Below, piece after piece: positions 10,560 through 64,000 of a stretch of 64,000 nt of DNA. The notes under the pieces are model-generated. The model was not told the DNA's origin, made no database searches, and was given only the letters and a program-made list of their open reading frames with translations. Made by a program: the position numbers and the translations under genes. Every line of letters begins with the position of its first letter. Positions within the stretch are counted from its first letter, which is position 1. The DNA comes from Phoronis australis. Taxonomy: Eukaryota; Animalia; Phoronida. The stretch lies in NCBI GenBank assembly GCA_002633005.1, contig NMRA01000090.1, positions 46,756-110,755 of the forward strand, written 5' to 3'.

Positions 10560-10589
10560 ACATACACGCACACACAGACACACACGCAC

Positions 10590-10631
<42 letters not shown>

Positions 10632-10633
10632 AC
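10560..10633. repeat. (CA)n microsatellite
   Basis: Direct observation. Confidence 0.95.
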
Positions 10634-10945
10634 CAGCTCATTAAAGAATGGATGTGAAATATGCTTCTCAATAGGGCTGTCTTGGATTACACAGCCACAG
10701 AACTAGATCTTTCTCCCATAACCATTGGGTAACCTGTGGTAACTGTTGGTAACAAAATGAAATAACATTCCAGTCTTTCTTTTGGTTAGGTGTTGAGAAA
10801 CGCCTGTGATGTAAATGGCTTCTGCAACTACAACAAACTAATTTCACACATGTTCTATGACTCACACTTGATAGATAATAAGAGGCAAGTAGAGCAGTAG
10901 CATATTAACTGAGTGGCTCATGTGTCTCAAGTGGTGCACGCACAT

Positions 10946-10946
<1 letters not shown>

Positions 10947-10991
<45 letters not shown>

Positions 10992-10998
10992 TCACACA
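10947..10998. repeat. (CA)n microsatellite
   Basis: Direct observation. Confidence 0.95.
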
Positions 10999-12155: not shown

Positions 12156-12562
12156 CAAGGTACCTAAACTACACGTCAACGGACTCATAAACACGGGGCA
12201 CGGAGGCATGAACACGACTCACGGACCTGCAAACACTGTCCACTGACTCACAAACACGGGAACGGACTCACATTCACGAGGTAACACGGTTAACGGACCG
12301 CCAACACGGGTCACGGACTCATCGGCTTCCTGGGTCAGCTGACATCTCCATTGTGTCCTTGACCCATGTTTGGCGGTCCGTTAACCGTGTTTCCTCGGGA
12401 ATATGAGTCCGTGTCCGGTGTATTTGGCTGAGTGGATCGTGTTTTATGAGTCCGTTCCCATGTTTGTGAGTCATTGGACGGTGTTTGCAGGTCTGTGAGT
12501 CGTGTTCATGTGTCCGTGCCCCGTGTTTATGAGTCCGTTGACCATGTAGTTTACGTACCTTG
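12156..12562. mobile_element. MITE with long TIRs and 5-bp TSD (TAGCT)
   Basis: TAGCT|CAAGGTACCTAAACTACA ... TGTAGTTTACGTACCTTG|TAGCT; arms built of ACGGACTCA/AACACG motifs. Confidence 0.85.
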
Positions 12563-13219
12563 TAGCTAGTTTTATATTTGACGTGCATTCTGATTGGTCA
12601 AATAGGTTCACTTGCATGTTATATGTTATATCCTTATACTATCTCACCAGTAGCTTTTATACATAATACCGATCACAAGCATTTTTCTCTTCGAACCACC
12701 TCGGGTTTTATTCATACACAATATAACCCACACCAGGTTTAAGTGGAGCATCCAGGTTAACTGCGAAGTTAAGTGAAGAAGTTGAACTGAACCATTGATA
12801 CTGGCTTCGGTAGTTAAACAAACATCAAAGTAAACGGTAGATGACGCTGTTGTCATCGAAGTAATCACAAGGTAGTGCTGCACGCAAAATTTTTTTTTAA
12901 TTTGACAATTTGAAAACATTTACATGTGCTAATTGACGTAAAATTTATTTTTAATTCGATTGGTCATTATTCGAGCAAAATATAAGCAACTATTAGTGAC
13001 TACACTACCCTTAAATTGTTGATGGTAACAGTGGTCCCTGGTGATAACTTCAATGGTTCTGAACTTGGCCATTCATACTGCACTGCAGCGTCAACTGTGC
13101 ACTGTTAAATCCACCTGTTATTACTGCGATGTTTTGGAGCTGTTAAGTCCGATCCAGGACCGAAGTTAAGCGTTCATACTGACCGCAAGTCCCCAAACCA
13201 TCGACGCGTCGACGTCAGT

Positions 13220-13735
13220 CAGGGCTTGGAATTTTCCGCGGAAACGCGGATTTCCGCTTTTTTCAAATGTGCTGTCCGCTTTTTTTATAATATTTCCGCG
13301 TAAAAAAAATCGGATTTGATATAAAATTTCCGCGGCAAATTCCTTACTTACCGCGGCGTCGCAGACGACATTCACCTCGAAAAGCGGAAGTTGCTCTTTA
13401 TGTTTCGGAGGAACGTAAATTGTCAACATTGCCGGGGCACCTGGGACAGCGTGGTGGGATTTTCAATGGCGTCTCGTGTTATTGTTAAGTGCAGCGACAA
13501 ATACTACCGCTCTGCAGCCAAAAACGTGTGGGGTTGGGAGTGCGGACGGGCGAGCTAAGAGCTAAAAGGACGCAGACGCAAGCTACTGATGGTGGTAACG
13601 TTTTTTTTTTTATTTTTTTTTTTTTTTTTAGTCCTCCCGATTTGTGTCGAGGAAGGGTTCACATTGACCATTTCCAGGCATGATTTGGGCCGTAAAAGTT
13701 TCCGCGTTTTTTGTCATTGGTCATTCCAAGCCCTG
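13220..13735. mobile_element. hAT-type MITE, 13-bp perfect TIR, 6-bp flanking duplication GTCAGT
   Basis: CAGGGCTTGGAAT ... ATTCCAAGCCCTG; TTTCCGCG subterminal repeats. Confidence 0.85.
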
Positions 13736-19700: not shown

Positions 19701-19817
19701 CAAATTGTTCTGCAAGTCACCCATTATGATAAAAGGGAGCAGTAACAACAAACTTGAATGTAGTCCTCAGCTTCCTATTTCACCAATTTTATGTCATTTG
19801 ATAATGTCTTTTAGAGA

Positions 19818-25900: not shown

Positions 25901-28900
25901 TGACCCCTAAATCTTTGTTTCTTGATAACTTGTCATCTTTTCTGTGTAACGGTGTTTGTACACTAGTGTACGAACTGTTTTTTAACTTGAAAACTTCATG
26001 TACAAATTAATAGAGACAAAATTGGCCGTATGAACTATTAGAGAAAAAAATCTAGTGTTCAAATTATTAGAGATAAAGATCGACGATAACGAGTGCAGCG
26101 ATGGCCTCCAAGACGGTGGTTTGGCAATGTAAATTAAAATTAAGTTTTTTTCCTGGGTGATGCATTTACTTCAGAACATAATACTAGAAACTTCAAACTT
26201 CAGGAACTATGCCGTGTTCGGAACCTCTGCTTTCTGCAATGTCGTCTGCCGCACTTATTTTCTGACTGAAGTGCACTAGATAAAAGCATGTATTCTAAGA
26301 AATCAGGCCACAGAAATGTGACGGTGGTTTTGCCAACACTCCCAATTCGATTTAGAAGGGAAGCTCTTGGATTTTGAACAATCCTCATACCTCACGGAAA
26401 GGTGTCAAATTCTCCCTATTTTGATGGAATTTCCCCGACTTATTTTTCTGGAAATGTATTTTGCTGGGTTGCCGAGGATGCCATGGCGACGGAAAGGACA
26501 GTGTACCTCATAGGGTTAATTTGCTGCCTACATTACTGCGTATTTGTGTGTGATCTTGAAATAATAAAAACTGCAAGCCAGGTTTTGTTTTAGCAGATTT
26601 TATCAATGTCGCTGGCTGTTCTTGTTGTGTGCCCTGGTGCTTAATTGAAATTTCTCGAAGCTTAGCTTAGTAGAGCAGTAGTCGCTTACCGTATTTCCTA
26701 AAAAGTCAAAGGTGTTATAGGCGAATACTTTATGTGAATGTTTGCGGTAATACGAAATTAAATGACAGCAATAGTAAGAAGTGCTACGTTTTCTGTCGCC
26801 AAAAATGGCGATCTGAAAAACGACTTTTCGAGCTCTATGCTAGCGTAGTAAAGCAAATAACGAATTCCGATCGCCTGAATAGAATTGGCGCTTATTGATT
26901 TGTGTTCTTTTATTCGAATGAAAATTTCCATTTTACCTATCCAGAAAGCTTGTACGAATTATTTTTTCCGACGCAGATATGTGTATGAACTATTTTTCCC
27001 TCGGACGCCTACTGTACGAACTATTGGAGACAAGCGGCATGTTTCAAGGGTCCTGTACGAACTAATAGAGTGTACGAATTAATAGAGAAAACACCGTAGT
27101 TGCATCTTCACATTCATTGTCAATGTTGTTATCATCATCACAATCGATTATCGTTGTCATGACAATCACTGTCTTTTTTGTTAAAATTTCATGAAATATC
27201 ACTTACATTCAGGGTATGTGTTGAATATTGGTGTTCATGTTTCTACTGCTAAGAGGAAGGCTGATGATTTTTGGACAGCTTGGGCTATTGTGGCGCCTCC
27301 TTGTGGCATTTTTGCGTGTATAATTGTATCTCCCAAACCCTTAGCAAGATCATAAATTTGGCAAGTGTCTTTGTGTAAGGTTGGCAACAGACAATGACAA
27401 CATTTGGATGGAATGGATTACAACTATGGATGTTTGATTTTTTTCTGTTTGCCTTTGTATCTTTGGGGTTCTTTGGTGGATTTTCATAAAATTTGGCAAA
27501 TAATGTTGAGATACGATGATACCTTCCCATCTTTGGATGGGTTCAATATGTTCTGAGCCATCTATTGGCCATTTTTATGATACGAATATACATCCCTAGA
27601 AGTACACCATTTATGGCGGAGTCTTTAGTCAATGTCGCTAGCTTTGTTGTGACCTTGAAGATTGTCCTGGCATTGCCATTGGTGTAGCAGTTGTTAGCAT
27701 CTCTTTAATCGTCATCCTTATTTATTTTGATTTTGCCAAATGCCACTTCTTGGCGTGGTTTTACATTGTTAGATTAGAAGAGTACAACAAGAAAAATAGG
27801 TGATTATTTTTTTCTGTTGCCATAGGTTCACCTAAATATCAGTGTCAATTACTGTGACATGTTCTCTGACTTCTGAATATTTAATGGTTTAGCTAAAAAG
27901 TGCATTTAATACCCAAGACCCCAGTTAATGGTTTATTTCCTGACTTCAATTCACTCCTTAACTTAAAGAGGCCTGGAACGCAATCAACAGACTAAATTAC
28001 AATATTGCAAGTGGTTCTCTGAGAATTAAACGGAATTCAACCTGCTCACCAGGCATTTTTAGGATTTGTGCGTAAAAATTTTTCATTTCTGTTCGTATCA
28101 AAGCATTTTCCTTTACTTTCAAATTTCAAAAAACGATCTGTCAACTGCTCGCCATTTCGTCAATTTTTCTCCCTCAAAGCAAAACATGTATCCTTATTTG
28201 GTATGGTAAGACATAGACATAGACATAGACATAGCACATTTCCCTTATATGGAAAATGTGACTTTTGACCTCAAGCGACTTCAAGCTACTGACTGTGAGC
28301 GCATGGAAGGAGATTAGAAACTCTGTGGTAACCACAAAGTTTTTCCTTCGCAGGTATTCAAAAATTGTTAATTTTGTGATTTTTTGGAAATTTCCTCTCG
28401 GGGGAAACTAAATTAATTTGTACTAGACGTTGTGAGATGGTAATTTCTTCCGGAATTGTTTGAAAGATATTTTTGACTTGCTTTTGCGTTCCATGCCTCT
28501 TCAACATATTTCTGTAACAAACATTCTAAATGATACTGCCAGTGCTGTAGTGGGGGTAGGCGCAGCCAACCACCTTTTGTCATTTGAACGTAACGCCCAC
28601 TCACCATAAGTTACGTTCAGTGTTCAAGGTGATGCGGGAGGCTCTGGGCGCCTACTTACCTCTAATTTTATCACTACAGCTCTGGATACTGCTAGGTTAT
28701 CTGAAAACAAGCAAAATTAGTTACATTGATGCTGGTAACCTGCCTTCCGTCACAACTAATAACTTTTGCTTTAGACTGCATATTGTTATAAAATAGGTTT
28801 CAAATTGTTCCGAAGTCAAATTGAAGATGACTTCAGGTCTTACAAAGAACGCCCAGTTTATTATTGCTTGAAATAAGGCTCTCCAAGCTGTCATGCGCTG

Positions 28901-31900
28901 AGTATATTCTTAATGATATACTCTTATCTCTTTGCAAACCTGGATATCACTTCTCATCTAGATGAGGAACAAGTAAGTAGTCAAAATCAAAAGTTCACTT
29001 CTTGCACGCAATGCGGGTTTATACCTACTTTAGATAATTATTGATTTAAGTCAAAACATTTTTCTTTCAGGGAAAGTACATGGATATTGAGTTTGACTTC
29101 AAAGGTGATCCCATTGGAGGTGTCATCACAAATTGTAAGTTTTGCTAGTTATTTTAAAGTTTCCCAACTACAAAGATGCTCAACTTGTGTGTTGTCAGTG
29201 TGTCTGGGGTATTAAGGTTATGTAAGACCTTATTCTCAACTTTATGTATTTAGCCAAATATTTTAACTCAGTAAGAAACTTGAAAACTGGTGGAAATTGA
29301 TTGTTTACTTTTAGTTATAGCAATCTGCCATTGATTTTGTCATGCGACCTTTTTTTAGTTTAATTTAGAAAAATATATTCATAGGAAAAACTAGGATGTC
29401 AAGAACATGGTTAAATTTCGTTTGATGTAAAATGCTGCTAAAATTTTCTGAATTATCATTTTGTTATGCGCCCACATATTTATATGTGGACGCATTATGC
29501 CGTCATCTCCGTCCGTCCGTCCGTCCGTCCGTCCGGGCGGCGTCCTGCGTCTGGCGTCCGGCGTCCGCTGCTCTATCTCCAAAACCCTTTGACATACGTT
29601 CATGAAATTTGGCACATATGTTCCATTCATGAATGGGACGGCATGTGCGAACTTTCGGACGGATCCGACTACCGGTGTGCCCCCTAGTGGCAATTTTAGT
29701 TTTTTACGCTTACCTTTGTATCTTCAAAAGTATTGAACGGATTTTCATGAAATTTGGTATGTAGGCACCTATTAGTGAGATGACGCTATCCTACTGTTTT
29801 CAGATGGATTCGACGTAGTTTGCGCCACCTAGTGGCCATTTTTACTGTTTTCGAGTCTGTATTTTTGCGTCCACCCCTCTATCAACCAAACCGCTCAAAG
29901 GATGATTGTGAAAATTGGCGTGTATGTGCTTACTATAAGGAAGACAGCTGACAATGATTTTCAGACGATTTGGACTACTGTGGCGCCTCCTAGTGGCAGT
30001 TTTTTTTTTTTTGCGCCCATGGCTGTATCTCCCAAACCGTTTGCAGGATCTTTACTAAATTTAGCAAGTGTATTTATGTGATGTTGACAACGGACGATGA
30101 CGACTTTAGGATGATTCTGACTACCGGTATGCCTCTAGTGGCAATTTTAGTATTTGCCTCTAGTGGCAATTTTAGTATTTTACATTGACCTCTGTATTTT
30201 CATAGGTCTTCAGGTGTATACTTTGTGTTACTTCGTGACTATGAAGGAAAAGTTCCAAGTAGAAATTTGTTTCTGGCATTCTAATGCTGTGCTAATCTCG
30301 TATGTTGGTAAATTTGTTTTTAATTCTATGTTTCTGTGGTGCTTTAAGCAACTGGTGTATAGGATGTGCTTGTATTATGAAGATTACTCACATTTTGCCC
30401 CTAGCCTATTGAGGAGACAATGACCATGCCTTTCCATTTTGCTAAGTACAACATACTACATATATGCCCTCTACTGGCCACTTTATGGTACCAATAAACA
30501 ACCCTAGAAGGATACCGTATGCGGTGCAATTGTGGGCGCATTTCAACGCTCTGCGTTGCTCTTGTTTTTGTTTTATGGAATTTTTTATTTTCATCATAAA
30601 ATCATGGAAGTCCTATTTCTGATTGCCCCTCAAGCAAGGTAGGACAGTTGTTTCTGTCAGTGAGTTAATAATGTTGCGAAGTTTGTCAAATTTTCACATT
30701 TTTCTAGGGTTTTACACAACCTTAAAATAAACTGTGTGATGGAAACTTTATAAACAAACTGTCATTCTATGGTTTATATACACTGTCATTCTATGGTTTA
30801 TGTACACTAACTGTTATGTTCTATGGTTGATATACACGAACTGTCACATTCTATACTTTATATACACAACTGTCACATTCTATGATTTATGTACACAAAC
30901 TGTCACATTCTATGGTTTATGCAGTGCTACACAAACTGTCCCATTCTAATGTGTTTGTACACAAACTGTTGTGTGCTATGGTTTATGTACACAAACTGTC
31001 ACATTCTATGGTTTATATACACAAACTGTCACATTCTAGGATTTATGTACACAAACTGTCACATTCTATGGTTTATATACACAAACTGTCACATTCTATG
31101 GTTTATGTAGTGCTACACAAACTGTCCCATTCTAAGGTGTATGTACACAAACTGTTGTGTGCAGTGGTTTATGTACACAAACTGTCACATTCTATGATTT
31201 ATGTACACAAACTGTCACATTCTATGGTTTATGTAGTGCTACACAAACTGTCCCATTCCAAGGTGTATATACACAAACTGTTGTTTGCTATGGTTTATGT
31301 ATACAAACTGTCACATTCTATGGTTTATATACACAAACTGTCACATTCTATTGTTTATGTACACAAACTGTCACATTTTGTAGTTTATGTACGCAAACTT
31401 TCACATTCTATGGGATATATAATACACAAACTCATATTCTACCATTTATTTATCATGCAGTAGTGGTGATGCCTCAGGCTACAAGTGATCCTTATCAGTT
31501 ACCATATCCTTTCAGTGCCTGAAATGAGGCGACTGATGAATTATCATTTTAAAGTCTTTATATGCTGTGTATAGTCTATTTTACTTCTTGTAAAAATTTC
31601 CCACTGAGGCTACTTGAAAATCAGTGTTTTTTCACTGAAGTGGTCACGCAGTCTTTTAAAGAATTTTAAATAAATAAATAAATAGTCTTTCAGTTGGTAA
31701 ATGCTCATTATTATGCACTCACTGTGGGCGCATATTACTGTCATCTCTGTCAGGGCATCTGATGTCTGGCGTCTGCGGCTATATCTCCTAAACCCCTGAA
31801 GGATCTTATTGAAATTTAGTATGTGTGTTCCTATAGGGCTGACTACAGAAACTGACAAGTTTTGGGCCAACACAAATACCACTGTGCCCCCTTAGTGGCA

Positions 31901-34900
31901 ATTTATTTTTCATATTTGCCTCTGCATCTTCGAAGTGCCTTGATGCATTTTCATGAAATTGGGCAAATAGGTTTGTAATATGTAGGCGATGATGCTATTT
32001 TTTTAGATGGAGTCGACGGGTTATACGCCACCTTGTAGCCTTTTCTGTTATTTTGCTTCCTGTTTTCTGGCGTCCGCCATTCTATCTGCCGTACCACTCA
32101 CAGGATCATCGTGAAAATTTACAGATGTGTTGCTGATGAGAAGAAAAATTGATGATGACTTTCGGATGGTCCGGCTACTGTGTCACCCCTTAAGTGATTT
32201 TTTTGCATCTGTGGCCGAATCTCCTTAGCCCTTTGAAAGATCATAATGAGATTTTGCAGAATGATGTGTTCCTTTAAAGCTGACAAGTGACGACCACAAG
32301 ATTCGGACCTATTCAACTGTGGCTCTGCCCCCCTAGTGGCAATTTTAGTTTGGAGTTCCTGGATGGATTTGCATGAAGTTTGTCAAATAGGTTTCTAGTA
32401 AAGAGATGGCGACGTCTTCCTGTTTTCGGACATATTTGGTGTATTTTGTGCCTCCTGGTAGCAAAATTGAGTACATTTTTGACGTCCACCTTAAGTTTGT
32501 ATCTGCCAAATTTCTCAAAGGATTGTTATGAAAATTGGCATATGCATTTCTGATGAGTTCACTGTGGCTGACACTGATTTTCAGACAGGTTCGACTACTG
32601 TGGCAACCCCTAGAGGCATTTTTTGTGTCTGCGGCTGTATCTTCTTAACTCCAAGGATGATTTTGAAAATTGGCATTCATGTTTCTGCTGTGAAGAGGGT
32701 GGCTGATGATGATTTGTGGACACCTCGGACTAGTGTGGCACCTCCTAGTGGCAGGTTGTTTTGCATTTGTATTTCCAGAGTTTGTTTTTGTATATTCATG
32801 AAATTGACAGTCTGTTTCTATTAAGGAGACAACAACGCCTTCGCTTTTTGGACAGATCTGGTGTTTTCTGTGCCACCTGGTGGCCATTTAAAATTACGCT
32901 TTTGACATCTATCTCTCTATCTGCCAAACCACTCGACGGATCATTATGAAAATTGATGGGCCTTATTTTAGATCCCAATCTTAAATTTAATATGCACATA
33001 GATCATATCACAAAGAAATTATCAAAGAAAATCGGTGTACTTAAACGTCTAGGCAAATTTCTTAATGTCCGTACCCTTAAGACCCTTTACCATTGTATTA
33101 TTCAGCCTCATATTGATTATTGTTTACCGGTTTGGGGGCACACTAGTGACACACTTGTAAACAAAGTCCAAGTAATCCAAAATAGAGCCGCCAGGGCTAT
33201 CCTGGGTACTAAAATTAGGGACACTAGGGTTGACGACTTGTACTCCAAGCTGGGATTTATGAAAGTAAGACAAAGAAATAAATATCTCTCTGCCTGTTGT
33301 ATATACAGATGTATCAATGGCTTGGCTCCAGCATATCTCAGCAGTAAATTCAATAGCAGTCAGGCTGTTTATTCTACACGTTCTTCTGTTGCTGGCAATG
33401 TTTCTTCTAAAAAAATTAAAACCGAGACTGGCAAGAGATCTTTTATCTATGCAGCTGCTATAATATGGAATTCTTTTAGCCCAGAAATTAAACGGTCCAA
33501 CTCAATTACTACCTTTAAAGTTAATGTTAAAAAGTGGCTGTAATTTACTTAACCTTTTATACCCTGCCTATCTTAATCATGTCATTTTTTCATTGTCGTA
33601 AATACTCTCATTGTCTGGAGTCATCTCTTAATTTATTTCATCTGTCTTAGTTAATTTTTTACCATTAATTGTCATTTAGTTATTGTCTTAATTCTCAACC
33701 TTAACTGTTTTAATTGTATCTTTGTTACGTATATTTCATTGTTGTTTTATTACTTCATTGTATTATGTTACTGTTTTTCTTGTTGAGGGCCCTCTTGGAA
33801 AGCAGTGCTATCACTGAAGAGGCCACCCTCATTTTAAATATCACAATAATAAATAAATAAATAAATAATAAAGGTTGTGTTTCTGATACAAAGACCCCAC
33901 CTGACGTTGATTTTCGGATGTTTTTTGACTGTAGGGGCCATTTTTCTGCATTTACAGCTGTATCTTCTTAATCCTTTAAGGAATTTTTACGAAATTTGGC
34001 AGATGGGCGCCTCTAGACATGGCAACAGATAGCAATAATTTTCGACCAATCAGACTATAGCTGTGCCCCTATTGTTAATTGTTTTTTATGTTTATCTCTA
34101 AATTTTAGGAGTTCCTTGGCTTATTTTCATGAAATTTTGGAAAATTGGGTATTACAGAGACGGCACCCTTCAATGCGGATGGGTTGACACATTCTGCCCC
34201 ATCTAATGGCCATTTTTGTGATACTTAAAGCTCCGTAGAGGCATTCCGTTTGCAGTGCTGTCATGGGCGCAATTCAATGATCCACGTTGCTCTTGTTTTA
34301 TGTTCTGTTAGCAAGTTGTCCCAGAGTTTAAACCATTTTTGACGGTAACTCCTGACTTGCAACTCTGCATGTAGAACAATTTTCTGTAACTGTAGCCTTG
34401 TCATAACTCAATTTACAGTTTCGTTTGACATTTGATTCACCGTTTACATAAGCGTGTGACATGAAAATGGTTAATCTCATAAACTCACAGCAAATTTGAC
34501 TTAAAATTCATTAGTAACAGTCACCTTTGGGGTTGAAATTTACAAACTGAATGCCTGTGTATTTACAAACTGAATGTCTGTATTATTATTTACAGTGAAT
34601 GCCTCTAGTATATTTCTGCGCAATGTTCATGTAGGGGATTTAAACAATGGCATGCAACTTTGTGATCTGCTGATTTCTTGATGTTATAGTTATAGCAACA
34701 AGTTTACTTTTTTAGGTCACTGTTTTCATGTTAATCTTTGAGTCAATATTGAACTTATGGTTATACCAAACACTTTGTCTGTGTTGGATGATTCATTTCA
34801 TATTGAGACAGTATTGAATGTCAGTGTTCTGTATTATTGCAGTGAGCCTGATCTTCCTCTTTATTATTATTTTCTTTGTATAACAACTTGGCTTTAAAAC

Positions 34901-40900: not shown

Positions 40901-43900
40901 TGGACGTTTTGTTCGAGTAAGCTTGTGAACATACTGTCAAGATAAAGTGGTCAACTCGAACCAGTCTTCAGTTGCATTGATAGCTATTAGCACCGGTCCT
41001 TAACAACCTGCGCTCACTCACGCACCGCAAAAAATGTGACACAGTGTGGTATGTAAAGTCGTAGGGCAGCTGGTTAGCTTATTGTTAGTTAGTATCCTGT
41101 GTGTTGTGTGTGAAAGCAGAGGACAGCTGGTTACCTTATTGTTAGTAAGAATGCTTTTGTGGCGTGTGAAGGCACAGGTGGCTTCCCTACTGTTAGCGGA
41201 AATGCCAATGTGGTAGGTGAAGGCAGAAGGAAGCTGGCGTACCCAGGTGTTTGTGAGAATACTGTTGTGGCATGTGAAGACGATGCGGTATGTGAAGACG
41301 GTGTGGTATTTGAAGACGGAAAGCTAGTTACCCTGCTCTAGGACAATTGTTTACTTTTCTGGCTTATGTATGAATTATGTGCACTTGCTTGCTGTTGTAG
41401 GTTCACTCAACCTCAGTGGTGAACTTGATGACTATAATTACTTACGCAACAGTGGAGATGTCGTGGTGGATACAGTGGATGACAACAGAGATTTCCATGT
41501 TACAATGGTCAGTGGTCACAACCTTCACCCCTATGAGCTGAAAGTTCATGGCAATTGAAATTAAGTTATTATTTTCATTTCAGTGTTTTCATTACAGAGC
41601 TGTTTACCAATTGTTCAGTATTGTAACCGTTTCCAGAACAAAGCTCGTAGTACTCTGAATTTTTGCAAACAAGCTCTCCAAAATATGCTTACAGGCCTAT
41701 AGTCACAAAATTTTCTGCGTGTATACATGTGGACCTAGGCTGCTTTTGCAGGCACAATTAAGGTTTCCCAAAATGAGCATAGTCAATGAGTTTCAAACCA
41801 AAAATAGGCTTTTTGAGAAAATCTTTATATGTGCATTATGCTGTCATGCAAGTCCTTCCGGCATCTGTCCTTCCGGCATCTGTCCTTCCGGCGTACGTCT
41901 GGCGTCAGAACAACGTCCATCCGGCGTCAGAACGGCGTCCGTCTGGCATCCGCTGCCCTATATCCAAAACCCTTGGACATATGTTCATGAAATTTTGCAC
42001 ATTTTATCCTTTCATGGATGGGACGGTATGAGCAAATTTTCGGACGGATCTGAATACCAGTGTGCCCCCTAGTGGCAATTTTAGTTTTTTATGTTTACCT
42101 CAGTCTGTTTCTTCAAAGATCCTCAACGGATTATGAAATTTGACGTACAGGCATCTGTTGGTGAGGTGACGCTATCCTTTCGTTTTTGGATGGAATAAAG
42201 GTATTTTGTGCCACCTAGTGACCAATTTTACTGTTTTCGAGTCTGTTTTTGACATCCACCTCTGTCAACCAAACCATTCTAAGGACGATTTTAAAAATAG
42301 TGACTGTCGTATATGCTCTCAGTGTGAAGAGGACGGTTGCCGGTGATGACTTCCACTACTGTGGCGCCTCCTTGTAGTAGTTTTGTTTTGTTTTGCGCCC
42401 ATAGCTGTATCTCCAAAACCCACTGCACGATCTCTATTAAATTTACTAAGTATAATTATATGAAGCTGACAACAGCCGACGACTTTCAGGCAGGTACAAC
42501 GAATGCCGTGCCCCCTAGTGGCAATTTAATTTTTTTCCATTTACCCTTGTTTCACTGGAGTTCCTTGACAGATTTTTATGAGATTAGGTAAATAGCTTTC
42601 AATTAAAGAAGCAATGACATATTCCAGTTTTCAGATGGATTTGACGTTTTTGCGCCATCTAGTTGCCATTTTTGGGATGTAAATTAACAACCATAGAAGC
42701 ACACTGTTTGGGGTGCATTCGTGGGCACATTTCAAAGCTCAGCTTTTCTCTTGTTTCAGCATGTTTTCATAATGAATTGACAAAAAATTGTATTGTCATT
42801 GACCTAATTGCGAAATACTTGAGTTGAGATGTTTCTTCAAAAAACACATTTTTGAACATGGCACAGTGGCCTAAATCCGGGGATGTGCAGTTAAGAAGTT
42901 GTTACGTCTGTATGCTCCCAGAAATGACATTTTGAGGTGTCTTGCAGTCAGTATCTCATTTTGAGGGTCCATTTCATGAAACTGACTTCAGACAGAAATT
43001 CGGTCTTAAGCTCTCTCTTCACAGTTGCTGGATAAATGTTTAACCAAGTTATTGTGAGCACCTCACAGTCTAGAAATAATTTATAGAATTTATCCTAGTA
43101 GACAGTAGCAGTTATATGCATATTCTCATAGAGTTTGCCCTTTTGTTCAAGTTAAGGCTTTAACTATTTTACATAAGTAGATATGTGGAGCCAAAGACCA
43201 GATTTCTGTATTAAAGTCCTTATCTCATAGGGTAATCTCGTTCAAAAATATTTACCAAATAAGTAATATATAACATGTTATAATGCTCACCTCCATTTTG
43301 TTATCAAACTAAAAGCCTTTTTGAGCACAATTTTGTACCTCTGCCGAGATCAGAAAATCATCGACTATTCCTGTCTATTTTCATGACCTGTGCATCAGTT
43401 AAGGAACGATTCTTGAATGGCGGTCGTGTTGTCCTTGAAGATGTATTGATATCACTATGAGCGTAAATGCGTTGTTATTTTGTTTGAGTGTTTTTAATTC
43501 TCGTTTTGGTTCTCTTGATACAAAATTGACTTTTTACTGTGCGGATTTTGTTCCTTACATATGACGAGTGGTATGTATGCAGTCATTAGTTTGTGAAAAG
43601 GTGGCATCTCCCATAGCCAAGACTTGGTTACTGAGGTCGGCCCTGACTCATGGTGTGGGTATGTCAAATTTCAACAACAGTACCCATTCTGGATGTGAAT
43701 TAGAGGAAAACCCGTTCTAGATTAAGCGAATGTCAATCTTTATCTCCATATCGTGAAACTGAGCAATTGCTGGACGTGTGAGCACATTTCTGCGTACTTG
43801 GCAGCAAATTGGCATCAGCTTTACTGGCTGTTACAAATGCACGGCGATGTTTCAACAAATAAAAACATGTTTGATCTCGAAACAGAGTGCACTTCACTTC

Positions 43901-55900: not shown

Positions 55901-58900
55901 CAGGCTCGATGCAAAATTCACAAGTTGCCAAACGATAACGGAGGCTTAGCATCAGTGTTTCATGTGCTTGGTTAACACCGGGCGTGCGTTCAGTAGACGC
56001 CAGGACCTACGCTAGGACCTAGCTAGAACCTAGTCAAAGTCACGTGTTATCATTTAAAATACACGGCTATATCTCGCGTAATCTCGCGAAGTCTTGCTTT
56101 TTAGCGAGGTCCTAGCGTTACTGAACGGGAGGCAGTTTTCCCTTTTAGACAGAATATCCCACGCAGGCTCACTTAACATAACCTGTGCGTGACTTATGAA
56201 TGGGTCCTTTGCATTTTTATGCGCCCACATAATTATTTATTATGTGGGTGAATATTCCTGTCATCTCTGTCTGGGCATCTGCCGTCAGTTTTCCGGCGTC
56301 TGCAACTGTATCTGGTAAACTTCTTACGGGATCAAAGTATTAAGCACCACCTAGTGGCCATTTTTACTGTTTTCGAGTCTGTTTTTGGGCATCCGCCCCC
56401 CTATCAACCAAGCCACTCTAAGGATGATTGTGAAAATTGTTGTTAGTGTGAAGAGGACAGTTGACGATGATTTTCCGACGACTTTAACTACTGTGGCACC
56501 TCCTAGTGGCAGTTTTGTTCTTTTTGCGCCCATAGCTCTATCTCCTAAACCCACTGCAGGATCTTTATTAAATTTAGGAAGTATATTTATATGAAGTTGA
56601 CAACAGAAGATGACAACGGCTTTCAGACGGATACGACCAATGCTGTTCATTTTTTCCGTTTTTCTCAGTTTCTCTGAAGTTCCTTGACAGAATTTTATGA
56701 AATTTGATAGCTTTCTATTAAAGAAGCAACGACATGTTTTCATTTTTTGGATGGATTCAACATATTTTACACCACGTGGTGGCCATTTTCATGATAGACA
56801 TTAACACCCCTAGAAGCACACCATTTGCGGAGCAGTTGTGGGCGCATTTCACCACTTTGTGTTCTCTTGTTACAGAATGATACTGACTGTAAATGTTTAC
56901 GTGTCGTCTTCGTTGTGACCTGGGATTTTTACTAGGTTGCCAAACAAATTTTGAGGTTGCATTGGCGACCTGCCGGTCACCAAATTGAGTCCTGTAACTA
57001 TACTAGGAATAGATAAACAGCCTATCCACTTTTAATATCTTACCAATAACAGAATGCCTAGTTATGGATGATCAATTCTACTTGCACTCAACTTTCATGA
57101 TGAGTAATAAGAAATCCTTTCTTTTGACATGTGTTGTATATTATATTAACTACTTCATTTATGTGAAATGTTCCAAAAGTGTTTTAAGTTTGAAGGCACC
57201 CAGTACCACTTTGCAATATTTAAAAATGTATGATATGAAAGCAGTAAGCAGATGAAGTCATACAGGTTATCTTTACTACGCCATTGGCAGTATGGCCTTA
57301 TACCCATCTGCATGGTGTCAGTGTGGCCGATTACGATTTGCACCTTGCCAGTGTGCCCATTTACCATCTGCACCTTGTCAGTGTGGCTGTAAACCGTTTG
57401 CACCATGTCAGTGTGGCTGTATATCATCTGCATGGTGTCAGTGTGGCCATATACAGTTTGTACCTTGTCAGTGTGGCTGTAAACCGCCTGCATCATCTCA
57501 GTGTGGCCATGTGCTATCTGCACGGTTTCAATGTGGTCGTATGCTGTCTGCACCGTGTGATCGTGCCCACACACTGTTTGCACTGTGTCAGTGTTGCTGT
57601 ATACTGTCTGCACTATGCCAGTGTGGCCTTGTAGTGCCACTTGGTCCTGCACTTGTTTCACTTTGTTTTCACAAATTACTAACTTGGCATTGTTTGCTTC
57701 CAGGTGACCTACAATGTTGATGGCTTCATTGACAAAAACAATGACCTCCTATTTAGAGACTTGTCACGCCTCATGTACAACTGTGACCACCTGTTATGCA
57801 AGAAGCTGTTTCCTGAAGGTATAAGGTCAAACTCAGAATATTTTTATTATTTCACCTAAATTTAACATACTAATAGTATTAGCCTTATTGGAAAATGGCT
57901 GTCTGTGCAAGCTCTTCAGACATCAGTTTCTAAGTTTCATTTCTGTGAAGGAAATTAGGTAGGCAAAATAAAAATGAAGTACACAAGTGAAAGAAAATGT
58001 CCCATGTATGTTTTTTAATACCACCATTATGCAGTCTTTGCAATGACTGTTTCTAATAATTACAAATGACTTATTTTGTTGAAGACTTTATTTTGAGGGT
58101 CAAGTATTATTACTGATAAAAACAACCATTCATATTTTGTGTTCTTACTTCGTAATATAAACTAGTAACTATAACCACTCAAAACTGTAATCGCACTTTC
58201 TGTTTTAGCCCCTTATTTACAAAAAAGTTATCAGATGATAATGAACTGTACATTGATGCGTTTAGTGGGAAATTTTTGATAATTTGAGAATAATAAGTTC
58301 AACTTGGTTAATTTATGCAATACGGGTGGATGGTTTATCAAACATTGTAACTAAACATTATTCTATGAGTTTTCTCATAATTACTTATAAATTATTTTGC
58401 TCAAACATGTTGAGGTCATTGGCGTTTGATTGCCAGTATTTCAGACTTTGTGGTCAGGAGACATTGAATAAAATTTCCTTGTTTAGTGTTACAAATTTAA
58501 CAAACTTCAGAAGAAATGACAGCTTAATACATACTCACTCTGTACAATGATCTCCTATCTTCAGGCATGCAGCTATGTAGCAAAACATCGAGAAACATTA
58601 CAGACAAACACATTTTTCATTCAGCTCAGGAATTTCCTACTGAGCATATACTTGACTATGAATTATGCTAATACTTATCTCAATTTCCTGGAAATAAGGA
58701 GCAAAAATGAAGGCAACTTACTTTTTTATGCGCCCACATATTTATATGTGGACGCATTTTGCCATCATCATTAGCCGTCTGTCCGTCCGTCCGGGGTCCG
58801 GCGTCCGCTGCTCTATCTCCAAAACGCCTTGACGTATGTTCGTGAAATTTTGCATATGTGTTCCTTCCGTGGATAGGACAGCATGATCGAACGTTTGGAC

Positions 58901-61900
58901 GAATACGACTACCAGTGTGCCCCGTATTGGCAATTTTAGTTTTTTACGGTTACCTCTGTATCTCCTAAAATTCTGCACAGATTTTCATAAAATTTGGTAT
59001 ATATGCACCTATTAGTGAGATGACGCTATCCTCCCGTTTTCGGATGGATTCGACGTAGTTTGCGCCACCTAGTGGCCATTTTTACTGTTTTCGAGTCTGT
59101 TTTTGCATCCACCCCTCTGTCAACCAAACCGCTCAAAGGATGGTTGTGAAAATTGTCATATATGTTCTTATTATGAAGTGGACTGCTAACGATGATTTTC
59201 TGACTACTTCGACTACTGTGGCTCCTCCTAGTGGCAGTTTTTTTTGCGCCTATGGCTGTATCTTCTTAACTGTTCGCAGGATCTTTATGAAATATAGTAA
59301 TTAGTGTATATATATGATGATAACAAGGAAGGACGACGACTTTCAGATGGATCTGAATACTGGTGTGCCACCTAGTGGCAATTTTATTTTTTTACGTTTA
59401 CTCTGTATGTTCAAAGGTCCTCAACGTATTTTCATGAAATTTGGCATATAGGCATCTGTTAAGGAGGTGACCCTATCTCTATGTTTTCAGACGGATTTGA
59501 CCTAGTTTGCGCCACCTGGTGGCCATTTTTAATGTTTTTAAGTCTGTTTTTTGGCATCCACTCATCTATCACCCAAACCGCTTTCTGGATAATTGTGAAA
59601 ATTGGCATGTATTTTTTTACTATGAAGTGGACAGCTGACGATGCTTTTCCAATGATTTCAACTACAACGGCACCTCCTAGTGGCAGTTTTGTTTTTTTTG
59701 CGCTCATTGCTGTATCTATTAAACCTTTTGTGGGTTCTTTACTTAATTTAGCAAGTGTATTTATATGATGTTGACAATGGACAACGATGACTTTCGGACA
59801 GATCTGATTACTGGTGTGCCCCCTAGTGGCAATTTTTTTTTCTTACGTTAACCAGTCTGTATCTTCAAAGGTCCTCAACAGATTTTCATAAAATTTTGAA
59901 TCTAGGTAGCTATTGGTGAGATGACGTTATCATCCTGTTTTTGGATGGAATTGAGGTATTTTGCGCCACCTGGTGGCCATTTTTGCTGTTTTCAAATCTT
60001 GTTTTTGGCGTCCACCCCTCGATCAACCAAATCATTCTAGGGATGGTTTTGAATGCGTATATGTTTTCAGTGTGAAGAGGACGTTTGATGATGGCGACTG
60101 ACTACTGTGGCGCCTCCTAGTGGTAGTTTTGTTTTGTTTTGCGCCCATAGCTGTATCTCCAAAACCCACTGCAGGATCTTTACTAAATTTAGTAAGTGAA
60201 TTTATATGAAGATAATAGACGATGACTTTCAGGCGGATCGAACGGACGCTGTACCTACAAGTGGCAATTTCATTTTATTCTGTTTTCCTTTGTTTTTCTG
60301 AAGTTCCTTGACAGATTTTTATGAAATATGGCATGTTCCCGTTTATGGATGGGTTTTACTTTTTTGCGCCATCTAGTGGCCATTTTTATGATACAAATAA
60401 ATTACCCCAAAAGCACACCTTTTGCAATGCATTTGTGAGCGCATTTCAACGCTCCGCGTTGCTCTTGTTGAGTAGTTAAGTTATTTTAGTCTTCCCTATA
60501 TTGTCATTTCAGTGTCCCTAATTGACATGAAGTTGAATCTCTTATTTTTGTCTTTATGAGGACATGAACAGAAAAACAAGGCACACTAAGAATGAATGTG
60601 GTTCACTGTATGAGTTAATTTATTTAATAAGCCTTAAAATGGACACATTTGCGAGGCATACGATTGATAGATTTCAATTCTTGGCATACATTGTATTTGA
60701 ACAACAGTGCGTCATATCACATATCTCATTATAATTACTTGTACATGCATGTGCTTAGTGTAACCCTTAAGATGTTCTAGACAACATTTAATCACAGACT
60801 GTATCAAGTCATACCTTAAATCATACCTTAAAAGGCTGGACATGTAACACTTAATGTTGATAGGAAGCCCATCGTATGTCTCTCTGAAGAGACCAGCTAC
60901 CACAGGCAGCCAGTTCAAGTCTTCAGTGAGTCAGCTGATGAAGAACCTGTCATCTAAGTCACCTAACTACATCCGCTGTATCAAGCCCAACGATTACAAG
61001 AAAGGAAGGACATTTGATCAAAAACTGGTCATGCATCAAGTCAGATACCTTGGGTAGGCTTATTTCTGCGCATATTATTGTTTTCATTACAGTGATACCC
61101 TGAAAGAATATTTAATTAGCCAGTTGGATTTTCAGATGCACCCTGAGTTGTTTGGCATTAATTATTCACAAAGAGGTCGGAATAGGATAATAGAGACTTA
61201 GAGATTGCTGTTTTCCTGTTGAAATAAGACAAAGTGCAAATGAAACAGTGTCCATTAGTTACATATAGGTAAGCAACTTTTGGGGAACTAAATTTGTGTG
61301 AATTGTCTGGTCCCATGGAAAATAACTCTGTAGTGGGACTGAAAGCCACGTTGTTGCAAGCACAGCAAACACAGTGCTTCACCATTGTAAAAAACGTGAA
61401 AATATTGAGTTGTATCTCCAAAACCACACACAGATAATGTAAAGGGCTCATCAGTGGTCACTTGGGACAGCTGAAAACAAGCCAGTGGCTTAAAAGTAAT
61501 CTATGGCAATGCCTTCCAGTGTCTTGTGCATTCTAAGTAGTCATTCACAAGTCTTACTTCATATTCAAATACAGGGGTTTTATCACTTTCACGTAATTTA
61601 GTTTTGGTGTCATTTTTGTCTCTTGCGTTTCAGGTTAAAGCAACATCTTTTCATTTAGACCACATACTGTGTTTTGAAATTGGTCTCATAATGTTCCTTA
61701 GTTAAATTAAGAGTTTATTGCAGGGCTTCAAAGAACTGACGGTTTATTATTGGTTGAGACCAGGCTCTTCAAGATAGCTTGGCATGTCATTCATTTTAGT
61801 ATCCAAGCGTGGTCTCAAGGAATAACGAACTGTCAGTTCTTTGCAAATTCAGAAATCAATTCGCAGTCCGTATAAGGCCAATTTTATAGGTAAGTGGTCT

Positions 61901-62218: not shown

Positions 62219-62280
62219 GTAAGATCTTATGGAACATATTAAAACAAAGACCTTTAAAATTCAACTTGTTTTTAGCCGTT

Positions 62281-63514
62281 TTTATGCGCCCACATATTTA
62301 TATGTGGACGCATTATGCCGTCATCTTTATCCGTCCGGCGTTCATCCGGTGTCCGGCATCCGCTGCTCTATGTCCAAAACCCGTTGACGTACGTTCATGA
62401 AATTTTGCGTTTGTGTTTCTATCATGGACGGGACGGCATGAGCAAGCTTTGGGACGGATCCGAATACCGATGTGCCCCCTAGTGGCAATTTTAGTTTTTT
62501 ACGCTTACCTCAGCTATACCTTCAAAGGTCTTCAACATATTTTCATAAAATTTGGAATATAGGCACCTATTAGTGAGATGACGCTATCCTCCCGTTTTCG
62601 GATGTATTCAACGTAGTTTGCGCCACCTAGTGGCCATTTTTGCTGTTTTCAAGTCTGTTTTTTGGCGTCCACCTCTTTATCAACCAAACCGCTCTAAGGA
62701 TGATGACTGCTGTTGCGCCTCCTAGTGGCAGTTTTGTGTGTTTTTGTGCCCATGGCTGTATCTCCTAAACTGCTGGCAGGATCTTTCCTAAATTCTGCAA
62801 GTGTTTTATATTAAGTTGACAATGGATGACGACAACTTTCAGACGGATCTGACTACTGGTGTGCCCCTTATTGGCAATTTAATTTTATTACATTTACCTC
62901 TGTATCTTCAAAGGTCCTCAACGTATTTTCATAAAATTTGATGTATAGGCACCTATTAGTGAGATGAAGCTATCCTCCCATTTTCGGATGGACTTGACAT
63001 AGTTTGTGCCACTTAGTGGCCGTTTGTACTGTTTTATTGTTTTTTGGCGTCCACCCCGCTATCAACCAAACTGCACTAAGGATGAGTGTGAAAATGGCAT
63101 ATATGTTCTTACTATGAAGCTGACGATGATTTTGCAATGGTTTCGACTACTGTGGCGCCTCCTAGTGGCAGTTTTGTTTTGTTTTGCGCCAATAGCTGCA
63201 TCTCCTAAAGTCACTGCAGGATCTTTATAAAATTTAGCCGATATCTTTCTGGCGGATCCAATGAAGGCCATGTCCCATAGTGGCAATTTCATTTTTGTGT
63301 TTCCTTTGTTTCTCTGAAGTTCCTTTACAGATTTTTATGAAATTTGGTAAATAGCTTTCTATTAAAGAAGCAATGCCATGTTCCCATTTTCAGATGGATT
63401 GGACGTTTTTTCGCCCTCTGGTGGCTATTTTTATGAAACAAATAAACAACCATAGAAGCACTCCATTTGCGGTGCATTTGTGGGCACATTTCAATGCACT
63501 GCGTTGCTCTTGTT
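62281..63514 (+). mobile_element. HINE copy F with 8 internal repeat units
   Basis: Both termini present; starts about 60 nt after the exon 17 donor. Confidence 0.85.
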
Positions 63515-63576
63515 ATACAAGGAAAAATATTCATGGCGCGATTTGTCACGGTGCAATTTTCTCCACCTTAGTTGCA

Positions 63577-64000
63577 TTTATTTATTTATTTATTTATTTA
63601 TTATTGTGATATTTAAAATGAGGGTGGCCTCTTCAGTGATAGCACTGCTTTCCAAGAGGGCCCTCAACAAGAAAAACAGTAATACAATGAAGTAATAAAA
63701 CAACAATGAAATATACGTAACAAAGATACAATTAAAACAGTTAAGGTTGAGAATTAAGACAATAACTAAATGACAAATAATGGTAAAAAATTAACTAAGA
63801 CAGATGAAATAAATTAAGAGATGACTCTAGACAATGAGAGTATTTACGACAATGAAAAAATGACATGATTAAGATAGGCAGGGTACAAAAGGTTAAGTAA
63901 ATTACAGCCACTTTTTAACATTAACTTTAAAGGTAGTAATTGAGTTGGACCGTTTAATTTCTGGGCTAAAAGAATTCCATATTATAGCAGCTGCATAGAT
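63577..64000 (-). mobile_element. Second copy of the same LINE (3' end), runs off window
   Basis: Reverse complement of 33446-33870 with about 3 substitutions seen by eye. Confidence 0.93.

What the first reader, a model, noticed from the sequence alone, without database searches (positions are those of the whole stretch)
58724..60469. Helentron-type elements carry phased arrays of CTCF-consensus sites (one per ~145-160 bp repeat unit)
Seen: each internal repeat unit of the HINE family contains GTGCCCCCTAGTGGCAA (subunit a), GCGCCACCT(A/G)GTGGCCA (b) or GCGCCTCCTAGTGGCAG (c), or a decayed version. In this copy the motifs end at about 58930, 59075, 59234, 59378, 59522, 59683, 59829, 59976, 60123, 60264 and 60379. 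Copies A-F total roughly 40 units by hand count, some degenerate. The three subunits differ strongly from each other, yet this motif is among their best-kept segments. Established: the reverse complements (TTGCCACTAGGGGGCAC, TGGCCACTAGGTGGCGC) match the bilaterian CTCF core consensus TGGCCACCAGGGGGCGC, and TEs are known to spread single CTCF sites in mammals. Inference: a rolling-circle element that disperses and amplifies tandem, uni-directional, near-nucleosome-spaced CTCF arrays could act as a mobile insulator or loop-anchor cassette, or could use CTCF to protect itself from silencing. This is the best candidate for an undescribed system here.
Basis: partly seen in the sequence, partly recalled or inferred. 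Interest (0 to 1): 0.85.

Follow-up and report, generated by a model that had tools for sequence, protein, structure and literature searches.

The report
Rolling-circle transposons carrying CTCF-site arrays
A very common jumping element in a marine worm- or lamp-shell-like animal carries a row of 145-160-base repeats, nearly all with a well-preserved, same-direction match to the binding motif of the chromatin protein CTCF, which likely binds there and likely serves the element itself rather than anchoring chromosome loops; unrelated elements of the same kind from other sequence sets show the same design, but no binding has been measured.

Summary
Window 58723-60469 is a non-autonomous Helentron (DINE-1/HINE anatomy) in an intron of a myosin-I gene of a lophotrochozoan (groups with Lingula, 100/97). 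It has 11 monomers (abc x3 plus two terminal units); 9 carry strong CTCF-matrix matches. All 29 window hits at p<1e-5 (1.3 expected) lie in this family, on one strand. The motif is constrained: 8 singleton changes against 21.8 expected (P=0.0007), and differences between monomer classes spare the matrix score (P=0.001). Three complete elements from metagenome contigs, unrelated beyond the motif (146- and 38-bp monomers), carry CTCF arrays in the same polarity. The loop-anchor and nucleosome-phasing reading is poorly supported: the host is a protostome, 38-bp units do the same, and the motif's CpG decays like any other. Best reading: selection for CTCF recognition that benefits the element. Binding and a host CTCF gene were not tested, and the matrix was recalled. 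About 97% of family RNA reads come from one strand, unexplained. This scan earlier noted CTCF arrays in other transposon kinds, not this family. New variant of a known kind.

The parts
58723..60469 (+). Non-autonomous Helentron (HINE/DINE-1-like) copy F, whole element
   Evidence: 262 and 249 DNA contigs and 693 and 1203 RNA reads leave the alignment at exactly 58723 and 60469 into unlike, T-rich flanks (runs X1 and X6)
58728..58757 (+). 5' subterminal inverted repeat (58728-58741) with nested hairpin arm (58744-58757), preceded by a T run
   Evidence: (I9, I16)
58777..58812 (+). Degenerate GTCC-type microsatellite (bounds approximate)
   Evidence: sequence; pure (TCCG)7 in copy B at 29508-29535
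58915..58933 (-). CTCF-type site, first a unit, decayed (5.7 bits)
   Evidence: family majority has C at 58924
59060..59078 (-). CTCF-type site, b unit (23.4 bits)
59219..59237 (-). CTCF-type site, c unit (17.6 bits)
59363..59381 (-). CTCF-type site, a unit (20.6 bits)
59434..59449 (+). Example of 'box 1', a second AT-rich segment conserved between monomer classes but not depleted in singleton changes
59507..59525 (-). CTCF-type site, b unit (23.8 bits)
59668..59686 (-). CTCF-type site, c unit (16.3 bits)
59814..59832 (-). CTCF-type site, a unit (21.2 bits)
59961..59979 (-). CTCF-type site, b unit (23.8 bits)
60108..60126 (-). CTCF-type site, c unit (19.7 bits)
60249..60267 (-). CTCF-type site, terminal a2 unit, decayed (3.6 bits)
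   Evidence: family majority differs at 60253 and 60256
60364..60382 (-). CTCF-type site, terminal b2 unit (22.6 bits)
60431..60444 (+). 3' subterminal inverted repeat
   Evidence: (I16)
60447..60461 (+). 3' terminal stem-loop (6-bp stem, 3-nt loop), followed by a short pyrimidine-rich end and TT
57701..57820 (+). Upstream exon of the host class-I myosin gene
   Evidence: tblastn of the Lingula homologue P0044
60863..61054 (+). Downstream exon of the host class-I myosin gene; copy F lies in the intron between the two exons
27222..27650 (+). Family copy A, old fragment (bounds approximate)
29459..30568 (+). Family copy B, both ends present, internal part replaced
31707..34299 (+). Older copy in two segments, C (31707-32960) and C2 (about 33925-34299), probably one element split by a 0.9-kb insertion
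41820..42756 (+). Family copy D (5' bound approximate)
56213..56872 (+). Family copy E, internally deleted
62278..63515 (+). Family copy G, both ends present

Best explanation
This is an abundant non-autonomous Helentron whose internal monomers each carry a conserved, same-direction match to the CTCF motif; host CTCF likely binds these sites, and that binding likely benefits the element's own copying rather than anchoring loops for the host. Shown: the HINE anatomy, dispersed copies with sharp ends, the a-b-c higher-order repeat, the matrix matches, their depletion in substitutions, and the same design in three unrelated complete elements. Inferred step 1: one ancestral monomer held a CTCF site and was amplified into a trimer and then into multiples of the trimer. 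Inferred step 2: the site was kept while the monomers diverged to about 63% identity, because lineages with bindable sites left more copies. Inferred step 3 (weakest): CTCF occupancy every ~150 bp, next to short A/T tracts, keeps donor copies locally accessible for a Rep/helicase supplied in trans, in line with a promoter- or accessibility-type role of CTCF reported for an annelid. Mobilisation by an autonomous Helentron follows from established knowledge of HINEs; no partner was found here.
For: Anatomy and ends: matching the DINE-1/HINE description in PMC4067079 (passages). Motif strength. Constraint: mismatch to class consensus at G/C columns 0.115 in the motif against 0.258 elsewhere; 69 substitutions against 124 expected, and less damaging than random (P=0.003; distinct events P=0.02); singletons 8 against 21.8 expected (P=0.0007), lower than all 98 non-overlapping windows, while box 1 shows 15 against 16.6 (21 units from copies B, D, E, F, G). 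The four inner differences between class consensuses cost 0.83 bits on average against 4.32 under the null (P=0.001). Neutral divergence would keep all three classes at 20.4 bits or more with P about 1e-3. The a and c classes break the GCCAC/GTGGC palindrome of class b at the tolerant column, which argues for sequence readout rather than a hairpin. Genome-wide reads on one b unit: 2 of 10 non-CpG G/C motif positions have a listed variant against 11 of 18 outside (P=0.04). Recurrence: L006 (146-bp units), L023 and L040 (38-bp units) have different subTIRs, full HINE ends and the same motif polarity, with no similarity to this family beyond the motif. In an annelid, CTCF is present and its motif is the commonest one in open chromatin, mostly at promoters (10.1101/2020.05.07.078311, passages).
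Against: No binding or accessibility data, and the host's CTCF gene was not checked. The matrix is vertebrate and recalled. The motif's CpG decays like others (RNA shares 0.12 and 0.19 against a mean of 0.20 outside), and the score-lowering change (column 15) is the commoner one in both RNA and DNA (0.189 vs 0.119; 0.122 vs 0.059). Column 15 is also the most changed column in the window. Per-column change does not correlate significantly with information content in any of 5 profiles (rho -0.14 to -0.47, P 0.07-0.58). Terminal a2 and b2 units show no excess conservation. Class c carries the rare A at column 12. No upstream U/M2 word was found (best 4-5 of 9). Fly CTCF makes no nucleosome-free region on its own, which weakens step 3. 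Alignments were cut relative to the motif and copies share ancestry, so the P values are optimistic. Read depth peaks on the motif, which lowers variant shares there, and 19 of 59 variant rows were not shown. The singleton deficit could equally reflect host-level selection or a lower mutation rate.
Confidence: 0.45

Rival explanations
1. Host co-option: inserted arrays act as insulators, barriers or loop anchors, and the host keeps the sites intact copy by copy.
For: Singleton changes, which should be mostly post-insertion, are depleted in the motif but not in box 1. CTCF sites are reported enriched at TAD borders in a squid (PMC10658181, passage). Helitron minisatellites in C. elegans introns were co-opted as insulators by another mechanism (10.64898/2026.08.08.743475, abstract and sections 6 and 13). 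Tandem co-oriented CTCF sites insulate in mammals (recalled).
Against: Protostome host; no insulation or loop signal at CTCF motifs in the protostomes, echinoderms and amphioxus analysed in 10.64898/2026.10.19.760054 (section 5). Eight segments lie inside one transcribed gene, all in one orientation, so there is no convergent pair. The family is very abundant (41,238 contigs laid from one run), which makes a specific boundary role for most copies unlikely. The CpG in the motif is not protected.
Confidence: 0.17
2. The motif is a conserved box for something else (a transposase or recombination signal, or another zinc-finger protein), and its likeness to CTCF is incidental.
For: The monomer has other boxes kept between classes; box 1 ties with the motif at 13 of 15 columns. 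Oyster HINE monomers share motifs across divergent families, and transposase-recognised motifs have been proposed (PMC7492417, passages). The information-content correlations are not significant. No other motif library could be scanned.
Against: Scores reach 21-25 of a possible 26 bits in several unrelated families with 38- to 157-bp units. Class differences fall on tolerant columns (P=0.001-0.006). The palindrome is not kept.
Confidence: 0.2
3. Neutral carriage: a CTCF site was captured once and amplified with the monomer. Its apparent conservation comes from alignment and ascertainment bias or from a lower mutation rate under a bound protein, with no benefit to element or host.
For: Transposons spread single CTCF sites in lamprey and mammals (PMC5504073, passages). 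Tandem amplification alone explains number, spacing and shared orientation. Metagenome loci were found by requiring the motif, and no shuffled-motif control could be run in that collection. Fourteen of 43 window sites have decayed below 13.4 bits.
Against: Three classes at about 63% identity outside the motif all kept 20.4 bits or more (P about 1e-3). Windows next to the motif, aligned as well as the motif itself, show no comparable deficit (ratio 0.70 or more against 0.37). Changes are biased towards harmless ones.
Confidence: 0.18

Closest known systems
DINE-1 / HINE non-autonomous Helentrons (Thomas, Vadnagara and Pritham 2014, PMC4067079; passages read)
   Same: Subterminal inverted repeats, nested 5' inverted repeat, microsatellite, central tandem repeats, 3' stem-loop, T-rich insertion sites, no coding capacity.
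   Different: No host-factor motif array is described in the passages read. Here the 3' subTIR lies about 25 bp from the end, against 38-60 bp in the mite HINEs. No autonomous partner was found.
Cg_HINE elements of the Pacific oyster with satellite-like central repeats (PMC7492417; passages read)
   Same: Lophotrochozoan host, GTCC-type microsatellite, arrays in fixed orientation to the ends, motifs shared between divergent monomers.
   Different: No CTCF motif is mentioned in the passages read; oyster copies are said to integrate in both orientations in the assembly (gene-relative orientation not given there). The array here is an a-b-c higher-order repeat.
Caenorhabditis Helitrons carrying tandem heat-shock elements (Garrigues et al. 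2019, PMC6927752; passages read)
   Same: A rolling-circle element amplifies and disperses tandem binding sites of a conserved host factor.
   Different: The factor is HSF-1, binding is shown by ChIP-seq, and nearby genes are rewired. Here the factor is likely CTCF and nothing functional is shown.
Transposon-spread single CTCF sites (lamprey hAT-Tip100 repeat 274, PMC5504073, passages read; mammalian SINEs, recalled)
   Same: A mobile element carries canonical CTCF core motifs and spreads them widely.
   Different: Those are vertebrate hosts with ChIP-confirmed sites, and no tandem arrays are described in the passages read. Here there are up to 11 co-oriented sites per copy in a protostome, without the upstream U/M2 part.
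Helitron-derived PATC insulators of C. elegans (bioRxiv 10.64898/2026.08.08.743475; abstract and sections 6 and 13 read)
   Same: Rolling-circle element minisatellites in introns proposed to protect chromatin from silencing.
   Different: PATCs work by 10-bp DNA mechanics without a protein motif. AA/TT autocorrelation in this copy is at most 0.05 near lag 10, so it is not PATC-like.

Membership tests
HINE / DINE-1-like non-autonomous Helentron | Subterminal inverted repeats of about 11-15 bp, the 5' one a few bases from the end | tested here: met
   58728-58741 and 60431-60444, 14 nt, 86% complementary; kept across copies
HINE / DINE-1-like non-autonomous Helentron | 5' inverted repeat nested with the subTIR, or a palindromic subTIR | tested here: met
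   58728-58741 / 58744-58757, 93% complementary; fold -10.1 kcal/mol
HINE / DINE-1-like non-autonomous Helentron | Short stem-loop near the 3' end | tested here: met
   60447-60461
HINE / DINE-1-like non-autonomous Helentron | Microsatellite and central tandem repeats | tested here: met
   GTCC-type run; 454-bp trimer period, 2.5 copies by TRF
HINE / DINE-1-like non-autonomous Helentron | Dispersed copies in T-rich sites with sharp ends | tested here: met
   hundreds of unlike T-rich flanks at both ends
HINE / DINE-1-like non-autonomous Helentron | No target-site duplication, shown against an empty site | tested here: inconclusive
   no duplication seen in the flanks printed for 8 segments, but no empty site was available (no genome held)
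HINE / DINE-1-like non-autonomous Helentron | No coding capacity | tested here: met
   no Pfam family above its cut-off in element ORFs among the 149 longest ORFs scanned, of 337 ORFs of 55 aa or more; no Rfam match in 58000-64000
HINE / DINE-1-like non-autonomous Helentron | Autonomous Helentron with the same ends in the genome | not testable with these tools
   no genome held; no Rep/helicase hit among the 149 ORFs scanned
CTCF binding site | Strong match to the core matrix | tested here: met
   29 of 43 units at 13.4 bits or more with the recalled MA0139.1 matrix
CTCF binding site | Substitution pattern that respects the matrix | tested here: inconclusive
   score-based tests pass (P=0.001-0.03); per-column rank correlations do not; column 15 CpG change is common
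CTCF binding site | Upstream U/M2 motif (present in a subset of vertebrate sites) | tested here: not met
   best 4-5 of 9 matches to a recalled word in 9 sites; not required for a core site
CTCF binding site | Host encodes CTCF | not testable with these tools
   inferred only: host groups with Lingula; CTCF is described as bilaterian-wide and is present in an annelid
CTCF binding site | Occupancy in vivo or in vitro | not testable with these tools
   no ChIP or ATAC run among the 8 runs listed
Vertebrate-type CTCF loop anchor / insulator | Host lineage with CTCF-cohesin loop anchoring | tested here: inconclusive
   host is a protostome; one preprint finds no signal in protostomes but names no spiralian in its main text; a squid study points the other way
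Vertebrate-type CTCF loop anchor / insulator | Convergent site pairs or boundary position | tested here: not met
   all 29 strong sites in 64 kb point the same way and lie inside one gene
Vertebrate-type CTCF loop anchor / insulator | Insulation in Hi-C or an enhancer-blocking assay | not testable with these tools
   no data

The most novel reading that the evidence does not exclude
Non-autonomous Helentrons in several animal lineages have independently built their internal repeats around a CTCF site, always in the same polarity to the element's ends, and use host CTCF as a cofactor of their own spread. Because nearly all transcribed copies in this host lie sense to their transcripts, the family lays down a very large, strand-polarised set of intronic CTCF arrays that point against transcription: a selfish use of CTCF in a lineage where it may not anchor loops, and possibly the main source of CTCF sites in such genomes.
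Probability: 0.3. Interest if true: 0.8.

Novelty: new variant of a known kind. Interest (0 to 1): 0.58.

Why it matters
What CTCF does in protostomes, and why the motif stayed so constant where loop anchoring seems weak, is an open question. If rolling-circle elements select for and mass-produce CTCF arrays, part of the answer is selfish. Motif-based surveys of CTCF distribution and orientation in invertebrates would then be dominated by one repeat class and would need repeat-aware reanalysis. Thousands of copies with intact and decayed sites give a built-in test of binding, chromatin effect and selection. Five searches that paired CTCF with Helentron or Helitron terms, or with a recalled fish repeat name, listed no paper on this by title or abstract opening; subscription papers are mostly outside that library.

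Tried and rejected
No whole genome is held, so copy number, a family tree, empty sites, the autonomous partner and the host CTCF gene were not examined. The run search listed 5 holders and 3 same-species RNA runs, none ChIP or ATAC, and no RNA holder was listed. One search showed only 40 of 471 variant rows, mostly differences private to copy F, so it gave no conservation profile; one search showed 40 of 59 for one b unit. Rfam: no match in 58000-64000. Coding role: rejected. Hairpin or palindrome role of the motif: rejected because classes a and c break the stem. PATC-like 10-bp periodicity: not seen. U/M2 motif: not seen. Poly(A) signals as the cause of the strand bias: AATAAA occurs 0-1 times per copy on + and 0-2 times on -, no clear contrast. 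T-run target skew: T runs outnumber A runs only 1.2-1.9-fold in the gene, too little for 97:3. mis-placed box 1 in class b; one search is the corrected run and is the one quoted. The first homologue search scored only 20 candidates and did not place the host; searches did, at clade level only, with no nemertean, phoronid or bryozoan among the named rows. Of 25 metagenome loci tested for HINE ends, 3 were convincing (L006, L023, L040); the other script hits (L011, L012, L026, L029, L033, and L040 in reverse) had weak or internal hairpins and were not counted. Control in prokaryote genomes: 11 loci, none both AT-rich and non-coding, against 21 of 47 in metagenomes (flank lengths differed). This controls for chance in prokaryotes but not in eukaryotes without CTCF. 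The hosts of the metagenome loci were not determined. Look-ups of earlier scan notes by sequence, by place and by two word sets found nothing. Supplements of the two 2026 bioRxiv preprints could not be seen; the species list behind 'protostomes' may bear on the loop-anchor argument.

Full report
Observation. A 2-mismatch scan found 31 sites in the window, all on one strand, including 10 of the 11 listed ends; the eleventh, 60264, is a decayed unit in register. Scoring used the JASPAR MA0139.1 counts as I recall them; they were not fetched. This gave 29 sites at p<1e-5 against 1.28 expected, every one inside a copy of this family and on the - strand. A 14-mer pattern gave 28 matches against 0.13 in dinucleotide shuffles. 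In copy F the unit order is a b c a b c a b c a2 b2, with spacing 141-161 bp and 115 bp for the last unit; 9 of 11 sites are strong.

What the element is. Copy F runs from 58723 to 60469: hundreds of DNA contigs and RNA reads leave the alignment at exactly these points into unlike T-rich flanks. It has a 5' subterminal inverted repeat with a nested hairpin, a GTCC-type microsatellite, a 454-bp trimer repeat, a 3' subterminal repeat and a 3' stem-loop. This matches the DINE-1/HINE description (PMC4067079, passages). Eight family segments lie in the window, all on the + strand; C and C2 are probably one older copy split by an insertion. One DNA run laid 41,238 contigs on copy F, and 30,023 of 12.75 million RNA reads of run X6 fit it at 80% identity, so the family is very abundant; the tool gives no copy number. 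All segments lie in introns of a class-I myosin gene on the + strand. In a 27-row tree that protein groups with Lingula at 100/97 inside the lophotrochozoans. No nemertean, phoronid or bryozoan was among the named rows, so the placement is 'lophotrochozoan, nearest sampled relative a brachiopod'.

Is the motif constrained? Within classes, mismatch to consensus is 0.113 in the motif against 0.196 elsewhere, and 0.115 against 0.258 at G/C columns (three units with non-homologous 5' parts dropped). The motif window is the best for a, near best for b, and best for c when old copies are included (11 of 107 windows are as good without them); it is unremarkable for a2 and b2. In 32 a/b/c sites there are 69 substitutions against 124 expected, and they cost less score than random ones (P=0.003; P=0.02 on distinct events). 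The class consensuses are about 63% identical outside the site, yet all score 20.4-23.4 bits; neutral divergence would give that with P about 1e-3. Their four inner differences fall on tolerant columns (P=0.001). A second box is equally conserved between classes (13 of 15 columns), but only the motif is short of singleton changes: 8 against 21.8 expected (P=0.0007), box 1 15 against 16.6, and the motif beats all 98 non-overlapping windows (21 units of the five younger copies). Genome-wide reads on one b unit agree modestly: 2 of 10 non-CpG G/C motif positions carry a listed variant against 11 of 18 outside (P=0.04), and columns 4-7, 10 and 13 have none among the 40 of 59 rows shown.

Against. 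The family shows strong CpG decay, which implies germline methylation (inference), and the CpG inside the motif is not spared: RNA shares 0.119 and 0.189 against a mean of 0.20 outside, with the score-lowering change the commoner one in RNA and DNA. Two further score-lowering variants reach 7% in RNA (columns 9 and 14). Rank correlations between change and information content are negative but not significant in all 5 profiles. No upstream U/M2 word was found. Units were cut relative to the motif and share ancestry, so the P values are optimistic. By recall, the methylation-sensitive CpG of CTCF sites is at the 5' end of the core, where none of these classes has one; binding could therefore persist in methylated copies, but this was not tested.

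Beyond this genome. A scan of metagenome contigs for two exact motif copies 136-166 bp apart gave 47 loci; 25 are under 50% GC and 21 of those have no open frame across the match, whereas the same scan of 596 Gb of prokaryote genomes gave 11 loci and none of that kind. Of 25 loci tested, three are complete HINE-type elements with their own subTIRs and hairpins: L006 (146-bp units), L023 and L040 (38-bp units). All carry the motif in the same polarity to the ends as the window family; with four elements that agreement has a chance of 1 in 8. They share nothing with this family beyond the motif; L023 and L040 share their 38-bp monomer with each other. In these families the motif core is again about half as variable as the rest (0.042 vs 0.100; 0.101 vs 0.220), but the loci were found through the motif and units were chosen by score, their hosts are unknown, and no shuffled-motif control was possible in that collection.

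Strand bias. About 97% of family RNA pairs in X6 have the first mate on -; X7 is similar, and X8 shows about 99% on the b unit. Reads run through both ends into unlike flanks, and no start site piles up, so this is read-through from host transcripts. Under the usual library convention the element lies sense to those transcripts, as all eight segments do here; no exon control was run. T-run skew (1.2-1.9-fold) and poly(A) words do not explain it. The CTCF-type sites therefore likely point against transcription in nearly all transcribed copies. The cause is unexplained; strand-specific insertion or loss of the other orientation are both open.

Mechanism. The constraint follows the CTCF matrix better than a hairpin or a generic box, so recognition by CTCF is the likeliest cause (about 0.65-0.7). 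Who benefits is less clear. A loop-anchor role fits poorly: the host is a protostome, all sites point one way inside one gene, and a preprint finds neutral insulation and loop scores at CTCF motifs in protostomes, echinoderms and amphioxus, and no autonomous nucleosome phasing by fly CTCF (10.64898/2026.10.19.760054; abstract, passages and sections 5 and 11). Its main text names no spiralian, and a review cites CTCF enrichment at squid TAD borders (PMC10658181, passages), so the question is open for this clade. A 145-161-bp period is shorter than typical nucleosome repeat lengths (recalled) and leaves no room for a full nucleosome between two occupied sites, and 38-bp units carry the same motif, so 'phased' spacing is probably just monomer length. 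In an annelid the CTCF motif is the top motif in open chromatin, mostly at promoters (10.1101/2020.05.07.078311, passages). I therefore favour an element-level benefit, likely accessibility of donor copies (0.45), over host insulation (0.17), another function of the box (0.20) and neutral carriage (0.18).

Comparison and verdict. The element meets the testable structural features of a HINE; an empty site and an autonomous partner could not be tested. It works like the Helitron-borne heat-shock-element arrays of Caenorhabditis (PMC6927752, passages) and extends transposon-spread CTCF sites (PMC5504073, passages) to tandem arrays in a protostome rolling-circle element. Oyster HINEs with satellite-like arrays are the closest structural relatives (PMC7492417, passages). 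Searches listed nothing on Helentron-borne CTCF arrays by title or abstract opening; the other searches supplied background only. Earlier notes of this scan describe CTCF-type arrays in other transposon kinds in other genomes; they are unchecked leads. Verdict: a real feature and a new variant of a known kind, with recurrence in unrelated elements and an unexplained strand bias; function untested. Interest 0.58.

Noticed in passing
window 58723-60469 (reads) and all eight family segments 27222-63515: About 97-99% of RNA read pairs that fit the family come from one strand and run through both element ends from unlike flanks; all eight segments here are sense to the myosin gene. T-run skew and poly(A) words do not explain so strong a bias.
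   Followed up: partly
window 19818-62221: Class-I myosin (Myo1a/b-like) gene on the + strand, 16 exon matches, nearest named homologue Lingula (72% identity); it continues beyond the window.
   Followed up: yes
window 32950-33870: A 197-aa open frame followed by a (TAAA)n tail splits the older copy C/C2. It resembles the end of a non-LTR retrotransposon ORF by recall; Pfam did not name it.
   Followed up: no
window 59434-59449 and equivalents: 'Box 1', an AT-rich segment kept between the a, b and c monomers as well as the CTCF-type site is, with a look-alike in the unrelated L006 monomer; it may be an element-level signal.
   Followed up: partly
L006:126-1312 (element on the - strand; 26-1212 of the reverse complement), L036: Complete unrelated HINE-type element with a 16-bp 5' hairpin and seven 146-bp monomers, six scoring 20.5-24.0 bits; L036 is a second copy (88% identity).
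   Followed up: partly
L023:1235-1955, L040:1170-2190, L012, L017, L019, L025, L038, L045: A 38-bp minisatellite that is half CTCF-type site (up to 25.2 bits), carried by at least two HINE-type elements with different ends.
   Followed up: partly
L033:815-1150: A 157-bp tandem unit holding a CTCF-type site together with words that resemble YY1 and CRE sites (names recalled); element ends not identified.
   Followed up: no
L011, L014, L030, L035, L028, L001, L002, L020, L015: Further tandem or paired CTCF-type sites in non-coding-looking repeats with periods of 34-158 bp; no HINE ends found in those tested (L015 and L020 were not tested), hosts unknown.
   Followed up: partly
window 30754-31432 and 57284-57633: Two intronic 30-bp minisatellite arrays with higher-order periods (126/186 and 60/90/120 bp), each near a family copy.
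   Followed up: no
window 30130-30180: A 25-bp local duplication in copy B doubles the 3' half of a motif just where the element's internal part is replaced by other sequence.
   Followed up: no
window 1-19800: No family copy lies in the first 19.8 kb although T runs exceed A runs there too; all eight segments are in the following 44 kb.
   Followed up: no
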